Shown here: one piece after another, positions 1,092-16,887 of the stretch | Layout of the letters: every line of letters starts with the position of its first letter | Numbering within the stretch: the first letter of the stretch is position 1 | From: Eledone cirrhosa | Lineage: Eukaryota | Direction of reading: 5' to 3' | DNA length: 64,000 nt | Assembly: GCA_964016885.1 (NCBI GenBank) | Contig: OZ024742.1 | Coordinates: forward strand, 277,574,001-277,638,000 | Program-made: the position numbers and the translations under genes | Notes under the pieces: model-generated | The model's input: only the letters and a program-made list of their open reading frames with translations | Database searches by the model: none | Told to the model about the DNA's origin: nothing

Positions 1092-1163
1092 TGCCGTGAC
1101 CAGGATTCGAACATGGGTTACCACGGCCGTAACATGTGGTTCTAACCACTAGACGATCACGGC
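1092..1163 (-). tRNA. tRNA-His-body variant with ACG anticodon (type C, unit 1); possibly a pseudogene
   Basis: Reverse complement ...AGAACCACATG-TT-ACG-GC-CGTGGTAACCCATGTTCGAATCC... The acceptor stem is perfect, with single mismatches in the D, anticodon and T stems. A T6 terminator lies downstream. Confidence 0.75.
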
Positions 1164-1339
1164 AGTTAGCCAATACATACGAAAGACGTTCAAAATAATA
1201 CTGATATATAGAAGTTGCTGGCTATTTTGTTTCTTACTTAGAGAGTTGTCAAATTCAACAAAGATCTTTGTATATTTTACGTTGCTTTAGTTAAACCTTA
1301 GAACATTCAGTGACTGACAACATAGCTACCTTAGCAGCT

Positions 1340-1480
1340 CAACAGAAAGAATGAAGTAAATACAAGACATGAAAACAATAAGTACTGTGGTCAACATGGT
1401 TGACTAAATCTTTTCAAGATGGTACCCTGAATGGCCACAGTTTAATGATTGAAACTAGTAGAAGAATAAAATAAAGAATC
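1340..1480 (+). mobile_element. Degenerate SINE/LINE 3'-tail fragment inside the repeat unit (present in each unit)
   Basis: CTTTTCAAGATGGTACCCTGAATGGCCACAGT...GAAACTAGTAGAAGAATAAAA resembles the tail at 49855-49925. Confidence 0.5.
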
Positions 1481-1617
1481 TCAATGGTTTATATCACTTC
1501 TAAAATTATTGTTCTTTATATATTAACAGGTTTGTTACATAATAATATCAATATGACTTTTGTTGAGTTTCTTTAAAGGACGCGAGATATAAAAGAACAC
1601 ATCTAAGTGTAGAATCA

Positions 1618-2036
1618 TTAAGCCTTTTGATACTAAACCAGTTAAAACTGGTTCTGGTTCTATGAAACAAATGTACACATATTATAGGGTTCCTATTTAA
1701 ATTGAAATCTTCCATTTCATGTTAAGTTATTATCTTAGTAATAAAATAATAATTTTAGTAAATCCCTCAAAATTCTTCATTAATTAATTGAAATAGAGTG
1801 TACGTCATTAGAAATATGATCGCTAAAGTCCTAACCCCTTTAATACCAACCAGCCCTTGATCATCTCTGGTTCTATCAATCAAAATCACTAATTTTAAAG
1901 AATTCTTATTTAAATTAAAATTTTAGAAAATAATATTCGATAAGAAACATAATAAATAACTTTAGTAAATCGTTTAAAATTCTTCATTAATTAGTTGAAA
2001 TAAAATGTATTGGAAACACATCACAAACATGCTAAC
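1618..2036. mobile_element. Two tandem ~210-bp degenerate MITE-like copies with TTAACCCTTT-type ends (present in each unit)
   Basis: Internal ~208-bp duplication (TTAGTAAATC...TTCTTCATTAATTA.TTGAAATA). The homologous inverted copy at ~28650 shows the junction AAAAGAGTTAACCCTTTT. Confidence 0.45.
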
Positions 2037-2249
2037 AGTTATGGAATTACTGTCCTTCTCGTTGAGTCTAACATCATCACCATCATCATCACCATTACCA
2101 CCATCACCAGTAGCATTTTAAGGTTGCTTCTATGCTTACTAGGTTTGGATGGATCGTCATGGTGTGATTCAATTCTTTTTCTTCAACTTCTGCGTCCACT
2201 TATTTATGGGAATGTTGTGGGGGCAGAGTACTCAAACTCAGTGTTGGGG

Positions 2250-2321
2250 ATCAGTGACCAGGATTCGAACCTGGGTTACCATGGGCACAACGTGGAGTCC
2301 TAACCACTAGACGATCACGGC
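2250..2321 (-). pseudogene. tRNA-His type A (unit 2)
   Basis: Same sequence as 3-74. Confidence 0.85.
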
Positions 2322-2659
2322 AGTCAGCTAATACATATAACGACGGTTCAATATTATAGTGATATATCAAAGTCCTTATCTAATGAGTTTCTTATACTGA
2401 GAGTTGTCAAATTCCACAAAGATTCAATCATTGTTTCTACAATAATGAAATACATGATTATTTTAATGATTATGGATTCATTTTTTTTCAATACTTTTAA
2501 TATAAGATGTGATAAAACTTATTAAAAGGATCAGCTCCAATTATTGTCATCGGTCAGTGATGATATTTGCTTACTAAATAATATAATCGTTAATATTCTG
2601 AATAATTCATATTTTTAGTTTCAAAATTTTGAAAAAAAAAGGAAGATAAGCGTATCAGC

Positions 2660-2731
2660 TGCCGTGACCAGGATTCGAACCTGGGTTACCACGGCCACAA
2701 CGTGGGGTCCTAACCACTAGACGATCACGGC
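2660..2731 (-). tRNA. tRNA-His-GTG: tRNA-His(GUG), canonical (unit 2)
   Basis: Identical to 413-484. Confidence 0.97.
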
Positions 2732-3338
2732 TAACAGCTAATACGTAAAGAAGTCGCCCAAAATAGCAATGATATATAGAAGTTGCTAACTAATTTTTTT
2801 TCTTACACGGAGAGTTTTCAAATTAACCAGAGATATAATCTTTCTACATTTTATGTTGTTTCAGTTCACCTTTAGAACATTGTCAAATTCAACAAAGATT
2901 CAATCCTTATTTCTAGAACTCTCTTTCTGCTGGCAACTGGAAGATTCAATGATAGGAATGAGGGATTACGACGTATATCTACTTTTCAATTACGAGATGT
3001 TCATATATTTCAAAGTCTACTAAATGGGATATTATTAGCTACCCTTTGTCAAATTTGTAGCAATAATTATAGATTTGTTTTTTTCTTTTTTATCTATATT
3101 TACAAACATAGAAGCAAAATTAAGTAATGAGAAATGGGGAAAGAGTAAAAAAGGGCAGATCTGGATTATGGGAAAGTAGACGAAAGGACTATAAAAGGCA
3201 TAAATGAGAGGTAACAAGAACTCTAGGATCACATTAGAAAAGGAGGGAAAAGTGGAGATGGTGATTTGTTCTGATCCGAGGCGACGGACGGCGGGGTTGA
3301 ATTACAAAACGATGTGTAAAAAATGCAACAGCATTAGC

Positions 3339-13888: not shown

Positions 13889-13960
13889 TGCCGTGACCAG
13901 GATTCGAACCTGGGTTACCACGGCCACAACGTGGGGTCCTAACCACTAGACGATCACGGC
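13889..13960 (-). tRNA. tRNA-His-GTG: tRNA-His(GUG), canonical (unit 7)
   Basis: Identical to 413-484. Confidence 0.97.
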
Positions 13961-14567
13961 TAACAGCTAATACGTAAAGAAGTCGCCCAAAATAGCAATG
14001 ATATATAGAAGTTGCTAACTAATTTTTTTTCTTACACGGAGAGTTTTCAAATTAACCAGAGATATAATCTTTCTACATTTTATGTTGTTTCAGTTCACCT
14101 TTAGAACATTGTCAAATTCAACAAAGATTCAATCCTTATTTCTAGAACTCTCTTTCTGCTGGCAACTGGAAGATTCAATGATAGGAATGAGGGATTACGA
14201 CGTATATCTACTTTTCAATTACGAGATGTTCATATATTTCAAAGTCTACTAAATGGGATATTATTAGCTACCCTTTGTCAAATTTGTAGCAATAATTATA
14301 GATTTGTTTTTTTCTTTTTTATCTATATTTACAAACATAGAAGCAAAATTAAGTAATGAGAAATGGGGAAAGAGTAAAGAAGGGCAGATCTGGATTATGG
14401 GAAAGTAGACGAAAGGACTATAAAAGGCATAAATGAGAGGTAACAAGAACTCTAGGATCACATTAGAAAAGGAGGGAAAAGTGGAGATGGTGATTTGTTC
14501 TGATCCGAGGCGACGGACGGCGGGGTTGAATTACAAAACAATGTGTAAAAAATGCAACCGCATTAGC

Positions 14568-14639
14568 TGCCGTGACCAGGATTCGAACATGGGTTACCAC
14601 GGCCGTAACATGTGGTTCTAACCACTAGACGATCACGGC
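14568..14639 (-). tRNA. Type C variant, ACG anticodon (unit 7)
   Basis: Identical to 1092-1163. Confidence 0.75.
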
Positions 14640-15725
14640 AGTTAGCCAATACATACGAAAAACGTTCAAAATAATACTGATATATAGAAGTTGCTGGCTA
14701 TTTTGTTTCTTACTTAGAGAGTTGTCAAATTCAACAAAGATCTTTGTATATTTTACGTTGCTTTAGTTAAACTTTAGAACATTCAGTGACTGACAACATA
14801 GCTACCTTAGCAGCTCAACAGAAAGAATGAAGTAAATACAAGACATGAAAACAATAAGTACTGTGGTCAACATGGTTGACTAAATCTTTTCAAGATGGTA
14901 CCCTGAATGGCCATTGTTTAATGATTGAAACTAGTAGAAGAATAAAATAAAGAATCTCAATGGTTTATATCACTTCTAAAATTATTGTTCTTTATATATT
15001 AACAGGTTTGTTACATAATAATATCAATATGACTTTTGTTGAGTTTCTTTAAAGGACGCGAGATATAAAAGAACACATCTAAGTGTAGAATCATTAAGCC
15101 TTTTGATACTAAACCAGTTAAAACTGGTTCTGGTTCTATGAAACAAATGTACACATATTATAGGGTTTCTATTTAAATTGAAATCTTCCATTTCATGTTA
15201 AGTTATTATCTTAGTAATAAAATAATAATTTTAGTAAATCCCTCAAAATTCTTCATTAATTAATTGAAATAGAGTGTACGTCATTAGAAATATGATCGCT
15301 AAAGTCCTAACCCCTTTAATACCAACCAGCCCTTGATCATCTCTGGTTCTATCAATCAAAATCACTAATTTTAAAGAATTCTTATTTAAATTAAAATTTT
15401 AGAAAATAATATTCGATAAGAAACATAATAAATAACTTTAGTAAATCGTTTAAAATTCTTCATTAATTAGTTGAAATAAAATGTATTGGAAACACATCAC
15501 AAACATGCTAACAGTTATGGAATTACTGTCCTTCTCGTTGAGTCTAACATCATCACCATCATCATCACCATTACCACCATCACCAGTAGCATTTTAAGGT
15601 TGCTTCTATGCTTACTAGGTTTGGATGGATCGTCATGGTGTGATTCAATTCTTTTTCTTCAACTTCTGCGTCCACTTATTTATGGGAATGTTGTGGGGGC
15701 AGAGTACTCAAACTCAGTGTTGGGG

Positions 15726-15797
15726 ATCAGTGACCAGGATTCGAACCTGGGTTACCATGGGCACAACGTGGAGTCCTAACCACTAGACGATCACGGC
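15726..15797 (-). pseudogene. tRNA-His type A (unit 8)
   Basis: Same sequence as 3-74. Confidence 0.85.
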
Positions 15798-16136
15798 AGT
15801 CAGCTAATACATATAACGACGGTTCAATATTATAGTGATATATCAAAGTCCTTATCTAATGAGTTTCTTATACTGAGAGTTGTCAAATTCCACAAAGATT
15901 CAATCATTGTTTCTACAATAATGAAATACATGATTATTTTAATGATTTTGCATTCATTTTTTTTCAATACTGTTAATATAAGATGTGATAAAACTTATTA
16001 AAAGGATCAGCTCCCATTATTGTCATCGGTCAGTGATGATATTTGCTTACTAAATAATATAATCGTTAATATTCTGAATAATTCATATTTTTAGTTTCAA
16101 AATTTTGAAAAAAAAAAGGAAGATAAGCGTATCAGT

Positions 16137-16208
16137 TGCCGTGACCAGGATTCGAACCTGGGTTACCACGGCCACAACGTGGGGTCCTAACCACTAGACA
16201 ATCACGGC
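16137..16208 (-). tRNA. tRNA-His-GTG: tRNA-His(GUG) type B with C9T (unit 8)
   Basis: Canonical except CTAGACAATCACGGC on +. Confidence 0.9.
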
Positions 16209-16815
16209 TAACAGCTAATACATAAAAGAGTCGCCGAAAATAACAATGATATATAGAAGTTGCTAACTACATTTTTCTCTTACATAGAGAGTTGTCAAAT
16301 TAACCAAATATATAATCTTTCTACATTTTACGTTGTTTCAGTTCACCTTTAGAACATTGTCAAATTCAACAAAGATTCAATCCTTATTTCTAGAACTCTC
16401 TTTCTGCTGGCAACTGGAAGATTCAATGATAGGAATGAGGGATTACGACGTATATCTACTTTTCAATTACGAGAGGTTCATATATTTCAAAGTCTACTAA
16501 ATGGGATATTATTAGCTAACCTTTGTCAAATTTGTAGCAATAATTATACATTTGTTTTTTTCTTTTTTATCTATATTTACAAACATAGAAGCAAAATTAA
16601 GTAATGAGAAATGGGGAAAGAGTAAAGAAGGGCAGATCTGGATTATGGGAAAGTAGACGAAAGGACTATAAAAGGCATAAATGAGAGGTAACAAGAACTC
16701 TAGGATCACATTAGAAAAGGAGGGAAAAGTGGAGATGGTGATTTGTTCTGATCCGAGGCGACGGACGGCGGGGTTGAATTACAAAACAATGTGTAAAAAA
16801 TGCAACCGCATTAGC

Positions 16816-16887
16816 TGCCGTGACCAGGATTCGAACATGGGTTACCACGGCCGTAACATGTGGTTCTAACCACTAGACGATCACGGC
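16816..16887 (-). tRNA. Type C variant, ACG anticodon (unit 8)
   Basis: Identical to 1092-1163. Confidence 0.75.

What the first reader, a model, noticed from the sequence alone, without database searches (positions are those of the whole stretch)
1092..16887. His-to-Arg anticodon switch (GUG to ACG) fixed in 7 of 8 type-C copies, with an ATG copy resembling the intermediate
Seen: type C has a tRNA-His body with loop TT-ACG-GC and a T-run terminator. Most copies keep a perfect acceptor stem and near-consensus A/B boxes. Unit 4 (7833-7904) reads ATG, one step from both GTG and ACG. Established: ACG is the Arg anticodon (A34 is edited to I by ADAT2/3 and reads CGU/C/A), and Thg1 adds the His identity base G-1 by recognising GUG. 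Inference: the RNA could be an alloacceptor recruit, a His-for-Arg mistranslating tRNA, or an uncharged or tRF-producing RNA. Against function: mismatches at 12:23, 27:43 and 52:62, and U20 rather than the Arg determinant A20.
Basis: partly seen in the sequence, partly recalled or inferred. Interest (0 to 1): 0.72.

Follow-up and report, generated by a model that had tools for sequence, protein, structure and literature searches.

The report
Decaying tRNA-His copy amplified sixteenfold
A damaged histidine tRNA gene whose anticodon now spells arginine was copied 16 times inside a tandem repeat; it lacks the recognition marks for either amino acid and keeps gathering harmful changes, so it is likely an ordinary pseudogene rather than a new or mistranslating tRNA.

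Summary
Type C is a tRNA-His body (66/72 identical to the intact His gene, 37/72 to this genome's real tRNA-Arg-ACG). The array has 16 full 2.24-kb units, 8 upstream of the window: 15 read ACG, 1 ATG. All 16 share four changes and 15 a fifth, so 'fixed in 7 of 8' is one event copied by tandem amplification. The ATG copy nests among ACG copies (AU p=0.028 against a basal position): a back-mutation, not an intermediate. C shows no sign of purifying selection: 13 variants in 72 nt (4.3 expected from spacer), 9 damaging, 8 of 16 acceptor stems broken, 10 of 16 copies below the Rfam cut-off. It has lost GUG (the genome encodes Thg1; base -1 is T) and has U20, whereas all 7 real Arg-ACG genes seen carry A20 and the ArgRS has the FGDYQ motif. 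Neighbouring decayed His copies change anticodons at the chance rate (7 of 21). The fast mutation of C suggests Pol III still engages it. Expression and charging are untested. The scan's earlier notes held no matching finding.

The parts
1..19058 (.). Window part of a tandem array of 2.24-kb units (order A, B, C, spacer). 8 full units plus a partial last unit lacking C lie in the window; 8 more full units lie upstream (to about 17,960 bases before window position 1, G000:C3).
1092..1163 (-). Type C, subtype C1, ACG; mismatches 12:23, 27:43, 52:62; Rfam 36 bits
3339..3410 (-). Type C1, ACG; Rfam 36 bits
5586..5657 (-). Type C1, ACG, plus G19A in the A box; below Rfam cut-off
7833..7904 (-). Type C1 with ATG (derived C35T); 7 stem mismatches, 3 in the acceptor stem; the most decayed copy
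10074..10145 (-). Type C2, ACG; A24T, T60G, G71A (2:71 broken); below Rfam cut-off
12321..12392 (-). Type C1, ACG, plus T54G in the B box; below Rfam cut-off
14568..14639 (-). Type C1, ACG; Rfam 36 bits
16816..16887 (-). Type C1, ACG; Rfam 36 bits
1072..1077 (-). T6 run downstream of type C (Pol III terminator-like), present in all 16 copies
413..484 (-). Type B: intact tRNA-His(GUG), 62.2 bits; one per unit (also 2660, 4907, 7154, 9400, 11642, 13889, 16137, 18385); 12 of the 16 full-unit copies are identical
485..524 (-). Hypervariable 5' flank of type B (11 variants in 40 nt, 2.1 expected)
3..74 (-). Type A: broken tRNA-His(GUG), mismatches 1:72, 3:70, 30:40; one per unit; 2 variants among 16 copies
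1230..1265 (.). Approximate junction of the repeat unit: from about 1250 onward the spacer matches the single-copy DNA at the array's left end; nearer to C it does not
27545..27616 (-). Intact dispersed tRNA-His(GUG) whose flanks are homologous to those of type C (outgroup)
29334..29407 (+). Dispersed paralog in the segment most like C's surroundings (84% over 1.3 kb); itself decayed, with an independent GTG-to-CTG change

Best explanation
Type C is a tRNA-His gene body with an ACG anticodon, present in 16 tandem copies, that likely lost its function once, was likely amplified as a passenger beside an intact His gene, and is predicted to be charged by neither HisRS nor ArgRS. Steps: (1, inferred) one of many local His duplicates escaped selection and took G23A, C27A, C30T, G34A and U35C. 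(2, inferred from the array ends) unequal crossing-over between two homologous His 5' flanks made a 2.24-kb unit holding A, B and C, which expanded to 16 copies. (3, shown) the copies have since gathered 13 further variants, 9 of them damaging, and one copy reads ATG, inferred to be a C35T back-mutation at a CpG. (4, inferred, weaker) intact A/B boxes and a T6 run probably still let Pol III transcribe it, which would explain the raised mutation rate. (5, predicted) without GUG, Thg1 would not add G-1 and HisRS loses G34/U35; without A20, ArgRS would charge it poorly; the weakened RNA would mostly be degraded.
For: Single origin: all 16 share four changes, 15 the fifth. All 14 pattern matches and the 16 best DNA matches in the genome lie in this array. 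ATG derived: a tree without the anticodon columns rejects 'the 15 ACG copies form one clade' at p-AU 0.028; shared derived sites. No constraint: 13 variants vs 4.3 expected (P=5e-4; 10 without the ATG copy), against 4 in B and 2 in A. 9 of 13 are damaging vs 57% of random changes; damaging G52T is in 9 of 16 copies and G71A in 5. Stem-branch divergence of the body is 5/72 vs 10/115 in its own 3' flank, p=0.79. Rfam bits: intact His 62, real Arg 59-63, best C 45.7, 10 of 16 below 29. Cloverleaf energy -28.1 for His vs -7.7 to -16.0 kcal/mol for C. Baseline: 21 distinct decayed His copies nearby hold 9 of 203 changes in the anticodon (8.5 expected); 7 have an altered anticodon and 2 a double change. 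Identity: Thg1 exons found; -1 is T and position 20 is T in 16 of 16; 7 of 7 real Arg-ACG genes seen have A20; an ArgRS exon has FGDYQ, tied to A20 in PMC8975779; no non-anticodon change moves C toward Arg. Past transcription: 7 of 20 inner 5' flank sites changed on C's branch vs 10 of 115 in the 3' flank, p=0.004, the pattern PMC6130373 reports for active tRNA genes.
Against: Two of five founding changes hit the three anticodon bases (P=0.011 for one lineage taken alone), and ACG is an anticodon this genome uses. ACG persists in 15 of 16 copies and in other samples. Two upstream copies (C3) have G43T, which restores 27:43 as A-U; one has a single mismatch and 45.7 bits (chance of one restoring change among 13 is about 0.26). 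Support for the ATG copy's exact place is modest (76/86), and the array is mosaic, so tree and Poisson tests treat dependent copies too simply. B is not more conserved than spacer by count (4 vs 4.4 expected). Current transcription is weakly supported: C's 5' flank has 4 variants vs 2.1 expected (P=0.16), and only 3 of its 13 variants are C>T or G>A, the classes PMC6130373 finds enriched. The identity rules come from E. coli, yeast, plants and hamster, not this animal. Folding is a weak test: even intact His did not give a cloverleaf MFE.
Confidence: 0.8

Rival explanations
1. Type C is a young, weak tRNA-Arg(ICG) recruit: A34 is edited to I, and C35/G36/A73 allow some arginylation despite U20, best in the C3 copies.
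For: C35, G36 and A73 fit the Arg set. Yeast ArgRS barely needs position 20. The C3 copy has one mismatch and a compensatory A27-U43. Two-base alloacceptor shifts are known: 3 of 75 shifts in PMC3923123.
Against: U20 in 16 of 16; A20 in 7 of 7 real Arg-ACG genes; FGDYQ-type ArgRS. None of the four non-anticodon changes in the C1 copy matches Arg. No purifying selection. The genome already has at least 7 normal Arg-ACG genes.
Confidence: 0.07
2. Type C is charged with His and misreads CGU/C/A, putting His at Arg codons.
For: His acceptor stem and A73 are intact in 8 of 16 copies; HisRS can charge acceptor-stem mimics that carry G-1.
Against: Eukaryotic His identity is G-1, A73, G34, U35; only A73 remains. 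Thg1 reads all three GUG bases, the genome encodes Thg1, and the encoded -1 base is T.
Confidence: 0.03
3. Type C is silent; its excess variation comes from deep local genealogy or gene conversion with other decayed His copies, not from transcription.
For: The C2 haplotype is diverged across 930-1186, not only in the gene. The ATG copy has clustered changes. C's 5' flank excess among copies is not significant. Many decayed paralogs lie nearby.
Against: Rare variants alone are 9 vs 1.5 expected. Type A is equally homologous to those paralogs but has 2 variants. A and B boxes and the T6 run are largely intact.
Confidence: 0.3
4. Type C is kept for a non-translational role (fragment source, or Pol III/TFIIIC boundary element).
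For: Promoter boxes and terminator are retained in most copies; the gene is present in 16 copies.
Against: Box-breaking variants segregate (G19A, T54G, C61A), broken type A was amplified equally, and nothing shows constraint.
Confidence: 0.05

Closest known systems
Isotype-switched (anticodon-backbone mismatch) tRNA alleles and pseudogenes in Caenorhabditis (PMC13010820; passages read)
   Same: Backbone of one amino acid with the anticodon of another; such genes are common there (19-31 fixed per species) and are linked to mutation load.
   Different: Here one such gene was multiplied 16-fold in a tandem unit, and its copies show ongoing decay.
[quoted passage not shown]
   Same: Change of anticodon to another amino acid, class II to class I, by two bases (3 such alloacceptor cases among 75 shifts).
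   Different: That set excluded structurally unstable tRNAs; type C has 1-7 stem mismatches and lacks A20. Their supplementary list was not read, so a His-to-Arg case there is not excluded.
Transcription-associated mutagenesis at tRNA genes (Thornlow et al. 2018, PMC6130373; passages and section 9 read)
   Same: Hypervariable 5' flank of the intact gene (B), and a diverged inner 5' flank on C's branch.
   Different: In C the excess falls in the gene body, and the variants are not enriched for C>T or G>A.
This genome's own tRNA-Arg(ACG) genes
   Same: A34, C35, G36, G37 and G1-C72.
   Different: 37 of 72 positions identical; they have A20, C32, A38, G73 and 59-63 Rfam bits.

Membership tests
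Functional eukaryotic tRNA-His | GUG anticodon (G34, U35) | tested here: not met
   ACG in 15 of 16, ATG in 1
Functional eukaryotic tRNA-His | G-1, added by Thg1 | not testable with these tools
   Encoded -1 is T in 16 of 16; Thg1 exons present; Thg1 reads GUG; no RNA data
Functional eukaryotic tRNA-His | A73 discriminator | tested here: met
Functional tRNA-Arg(ICG) | C35 and G36 | tested here: met
   15 of 16 copies
Functional tRNA-Arg(ICG) | A20 in the D loop | tested here: not met
   T20 in 16 of 16; A20 in 7 of 7 real Arg-ACG genes
Functional tRNA-Arg(ICG) | A or G at 73 | tested here: met
   A73 (rule)
Functional tRNA-Arg(ICG) | Intact cloverleaf under purifying selection | tested here: not met
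   1-7 stem mismatches per copy; 13 variants, 9 damaging
Functional tRNA-Arg(ICG) | I34 editing, CCA addition and arginylation | not testable with these tools
   Needs tRNA-seq and charging assays
Functional alloacceptor shift | Descends from a gene of another isotype | tested here: met
   66/72 identical to His, flanks homologous to intact His loci
Functional alloacceptor shift | Shifted gene conserved across species | tested here: inconclusive
   Array held under two organism labels; label A contigs break at the anticodon; relatedness of the labels unknown
tRNA pseudogene | Low covariance score and broken stems | tested here: met
   10 of 16 below 29 bits, five at 35-36, one at 45.7, vs 62 for intact His; tRNAscan-SE itself was not available
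tRNA pseudogene | Evolves at or above the neutral rate | tested here: met
tRNA pseudogene | No mature charged product | not testable with these tools
   No RNA data
tRNA-derived SINE | Dispersed retroposed copies with unrelated flanks | tested here: not met
   All type-C matches lie in one tandem array with shared flanks

The most novel reading that the evidence does not exclude
A tRNA-His body has been caught one mutation (U20 to A) short of becoming tRNA-Arg: the upstream C3 copy has ACG, a compensated anticodon stem and a single D-stem mismatch, and may already be transcribed, I34-edited and weakly arginylated. The 16-copy array would then be a live staging ground for a two-base His-to-Arg recruitment.
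Probability: 0.07. Interest if true: 0.65.

Novelty: new member of a known kind. Interest (0 to 1): 0.22.

Why it matters
As a pseudogene it matters little, except as a warning: ARAGORN of the 16 copies tRNA-Arg, twice the 7 real Arg-ACG genes seen, which would distort tRNA gene counts for this genome. A modest bonus is that each unit carries an intact (B), a broken quiet (A) and a broken fast-mutating (C) His gene with largely shared history, a small natural test of transcription-associated mutagenesis. If C were charged, it would show a two-base isotype switch or natural mistranslation in progress.

Tried and rejected
No RNA holder listed in the one run search; this says nothing about expression. 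A Pfam search for the ArgRS N-terminal domain found no match in the genome; the catalytic-domain search and a six-frame scan then found the FGDYQ exon. The KFKTR motif was not found in the 30 kb fetched, so the cytosolic call rests on FGDYQ alone. The primary Thg1 paper was not held; a review was used. The far 5' flank (beyond about 1265) was first used as a neutral clock and dropped once it proved to come from the neighbouring left-end locus; C's 3' flank is used instead. Strong CpG hypermutability was not seen (spacer 4/44 at CpG vs 33/490 at other G/C), so CpG only mildly favours C35T. The bacterial promoter scan is not relevant to Pol III. Contig depths were not used as copy numbers. The RAD-seq runs gave 9-11 reads each on the stretch, too few for allele counts. 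Paper searches listed nothing on this array or on a His-GUG to Arg-ACG switch; they cover open-access text only. Earlier scan notes: none near; one unrelated bacterial note.
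Full report
Setting. The window lies in a 3.0-Gb genome of 1,796 contigs with intron-split Thg1 and ArgRS genes. No call named the organism. The microsatellites and one SINE-like repeat remind me of octopus genomes; that is recalled and untested.

Observation. An ungapped scan found 39 His-like copies in the window, 8 of them type C, 7 with ACG and 7833-7904 with ATG. 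Fetching 40 kb upstream showed 16 full units of 2,241-2,251 bp, each with a broken His gene (A), an intact His gene (B) and type C, plus a partial last unit without C. All 16 C copies share G23A, C27A, C30T and G34A; 15 share T35C. Three subtypes exist: C1 (G52T, 9 copies including the ATG copy), C2 (A24T, T60G, G71A, 5 copies) and C3 (A29G, G43T, 2 copies). All 14 pattern matches (up to 1 mismatch) and the 16 best of 40 scored DNA matches (106 candidates) lie in this array. Public contigs show the head-to-tail joint in 4 of 4 runs. Run X3 holds a C1 contig (1 difference over 1083-1216) and a C2 contig (8 differences, none in the anticodon); RAD runs X7 and X9, from other samples, each show the C2 pattern in one or two reads. 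One of the DNA holders may be the source of the assembly.

How the array arose. The single-copy DNA at the left end matches the spacer almost perfectly from unit position about 1250 to 2249 (2 mismatches to the nearest unit) but differs nearer to C, and leads into a different, internally deleted His remnant. At the right end C is missing and its 3' flank joins other sequence. I infer unequal crossing-over between two homologous His 5' flanks, with C carried at the junction. Broken type A was amplified equally, so copy number is no sign of selection on C.

Is ATG an intermediate? The ATG copy shares G52T, a 4-nt flank insertion and several flank sites with C1 copies, and U66A with two ACG copies. 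It has 9 private changes, against 0-4 in the other units. With the anticodon columns removed and three outgroups, forcing the 15 ACG copies into one clade is rejected (p-AU 0.028); the copy groups with C1 at support 76/86, not starred. One gain and one C-to-T reversal is the simpler history. The array is mosaic, so this is good but not final evidence.

Is C under selection? Among 16 units, C has 13 variants in 72 nt against 4.3 expected from base-class spacer rates (P=5e-4; 10 without the ATG unit); B has 4 (4.4 expected, all in at most 2 copies) and A has 2. Of the 13, 9 break a pair or an invariant base, 2 are tolerated, 1 is the anticodon and 1 restores 27:43; 57% of random changes would be damaging, and a restoring change has a 0.26 chance. 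On the branch before amplification the body took 5 changes in 72 nt and its 3' flank 10 in 115 (p=0.79), while the intact outgroup His gene took none. Rfam gives intact His 62.2 bits, five real Arg-ACG genes 58.7-62.8, and type C 45.7, 36 (four copies) and 35.3, with 10 of 16 below the 29-bit cut-off. These tests treat related copies as more independent than they are.

Is the double anticodon change special? For one lineage, 2 of 5 changes in 3 of 72 sites has P=0.011. But the 104 kb hold 38 further His-like hits outside the array. After dropping 8 weak, gappy or misaligned hits and collapsing identical ones, 21 patterns have 3 or more changes and 5 are near-intact. The 21 hold 9 of 203 changes in the anticodon (8.5 expected); 7 have an altered anticodon (TTA, GCA, CTG, ATG, GTA twice, GCG; 7.3 expected) and 2 a double change (1.1 expected; the GCA case depends on an insertion in the alignment). 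Type C is one such draw that happened to be amplified.

Identity. A review (PMC9976931; passages and sections 9 and 24 read) gives eukaryotic His identity as G-1, A73, G34, U35, and Arg identity as A20, C35, position 36 and A/G73, with A20 important in E. coli, plants and hamster but marginal in yeast. Thg1 contacts all three GUG bases (PMC6471195, passages). The genome encodes Thg1 (3 exon hits over the cut-off), and C has T at -1, so only A73 remains for His. For Arg, C has C35, G36 and A73 but T20 and C38. Of 8 matches to an Arg-ACG arm motif, 7 are tRNA-Arg genes and all 7 have A20. An exon at the ArgRS locus on C3 reads FGDYQ, the motif tied to A20 recognition in PMC8975779 (passages). 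C1 matches His at 66 of 72 and Arg at 37 of 72; only its two anticodon changes match Arg.

Is it transcribed? Not shown. The A box is unchanged in 15 of 16, the GTTCRA core of the B box in 15 of 16, and the T6 run in 16 of 16. B's 5' flank is hypervariable (11 vs 2.1 expected) and A's has 0, as expected for active and inactive tRNA genes (PMC6130373). C's inner 5' flank changed at 7 of 20 sites on its own branch (p=0.004 vs the 3' flank), pointing to past activity. Its body has 9 rare variants vs 1.5 expected, which fits continued Pol III traffic without selection. Against this, C's 5' flank excess among copies is not significant (4 vs 2.1) and only 3 of 13 variants are C>T or G>A. I put present transcription near 60%.

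Comparison with what is known. Anticodon-backbone mismatches are common in animal genomes: 19-31 fixed genes per Caenorhabditis species (PMC13010820, passages). Two-base alloacceptor shifts were 3 of 75 in PMC3923123 (section 7), whose supplementary list I did not read and which may hold a His-to-Arg case. Searches listed no paper on this array; I saw only listings for those. Decay of misfolded tRNAs by surveillance pathways is recalled, not checked.

Verdict. A real feature and a new member of a known kind: an isotype-mismatched tRNA pseudogene multiplied by tandem duplication. Confidence about 0.8 that it does not serve in translation; interest 0.22. The boldest reading left open is a nascent, weak Arg recruit in the C3 copies (about 0.07).

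Noticed in passing
window 29334-29407 (+): His-body copy with CTG anticodon, a 2-nt insertion and 5 changes; ARAGORN calls it tRNA-Gln. It lies in the segment most like C's surroundings.
   Followed up: partly
L001 8407-8478 and L002 4170-4241 (+): Two identical, heavily changed His-derived copies (18 changes) with a TTA anticodon, which would match the UAA stop; ARAGORN does not call them.
   Followed up: partly
L003 3127-3198 and 5370-5441 (-): Subtype C3: ACG with G43T restoring 27:43 as A-U; the first has only the 12:23 mismatch and scores 45.7 bits, the best type-C copy.
   Followed up: yes
window 485-524 and its equivalents in each unit: The 5' flank of the intact His gene has 11 variants in 40 nt across 16 units, about five times the spacer rate, while the flank of broken type A has none.
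   Followed up: yes
window 21367-21585: Interstitial (TTAGGG)n-type tract of 36.5 units between two copies of a 200-bp stretch (180 of 201 identical). The surrounding broken frames look mariner-like from recall; Pfam gave no hit over cut-off for the one piece scanned.
   Followed up: partly
window 49737-49846 (+): Lone 5S rRNA-like sequence, 60.7 bits.
   Followed up: no
window 20000-49500 and L001-L002: A cluster of 38 further His-like copies outside the array, in both orientations, many with shared flanks and in all stages of decay.
   Followed up: partly
window 4907-4978 and L004 8172-8243: Two type-B copies share G1A and G70A, damaging the acceptor stem (51.1 bits).
   Followed up: no
window 1685-1825 and 850-1000: Parts of the spacer are very high-copy repeats in the public DNA runs.
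   Followed up: no
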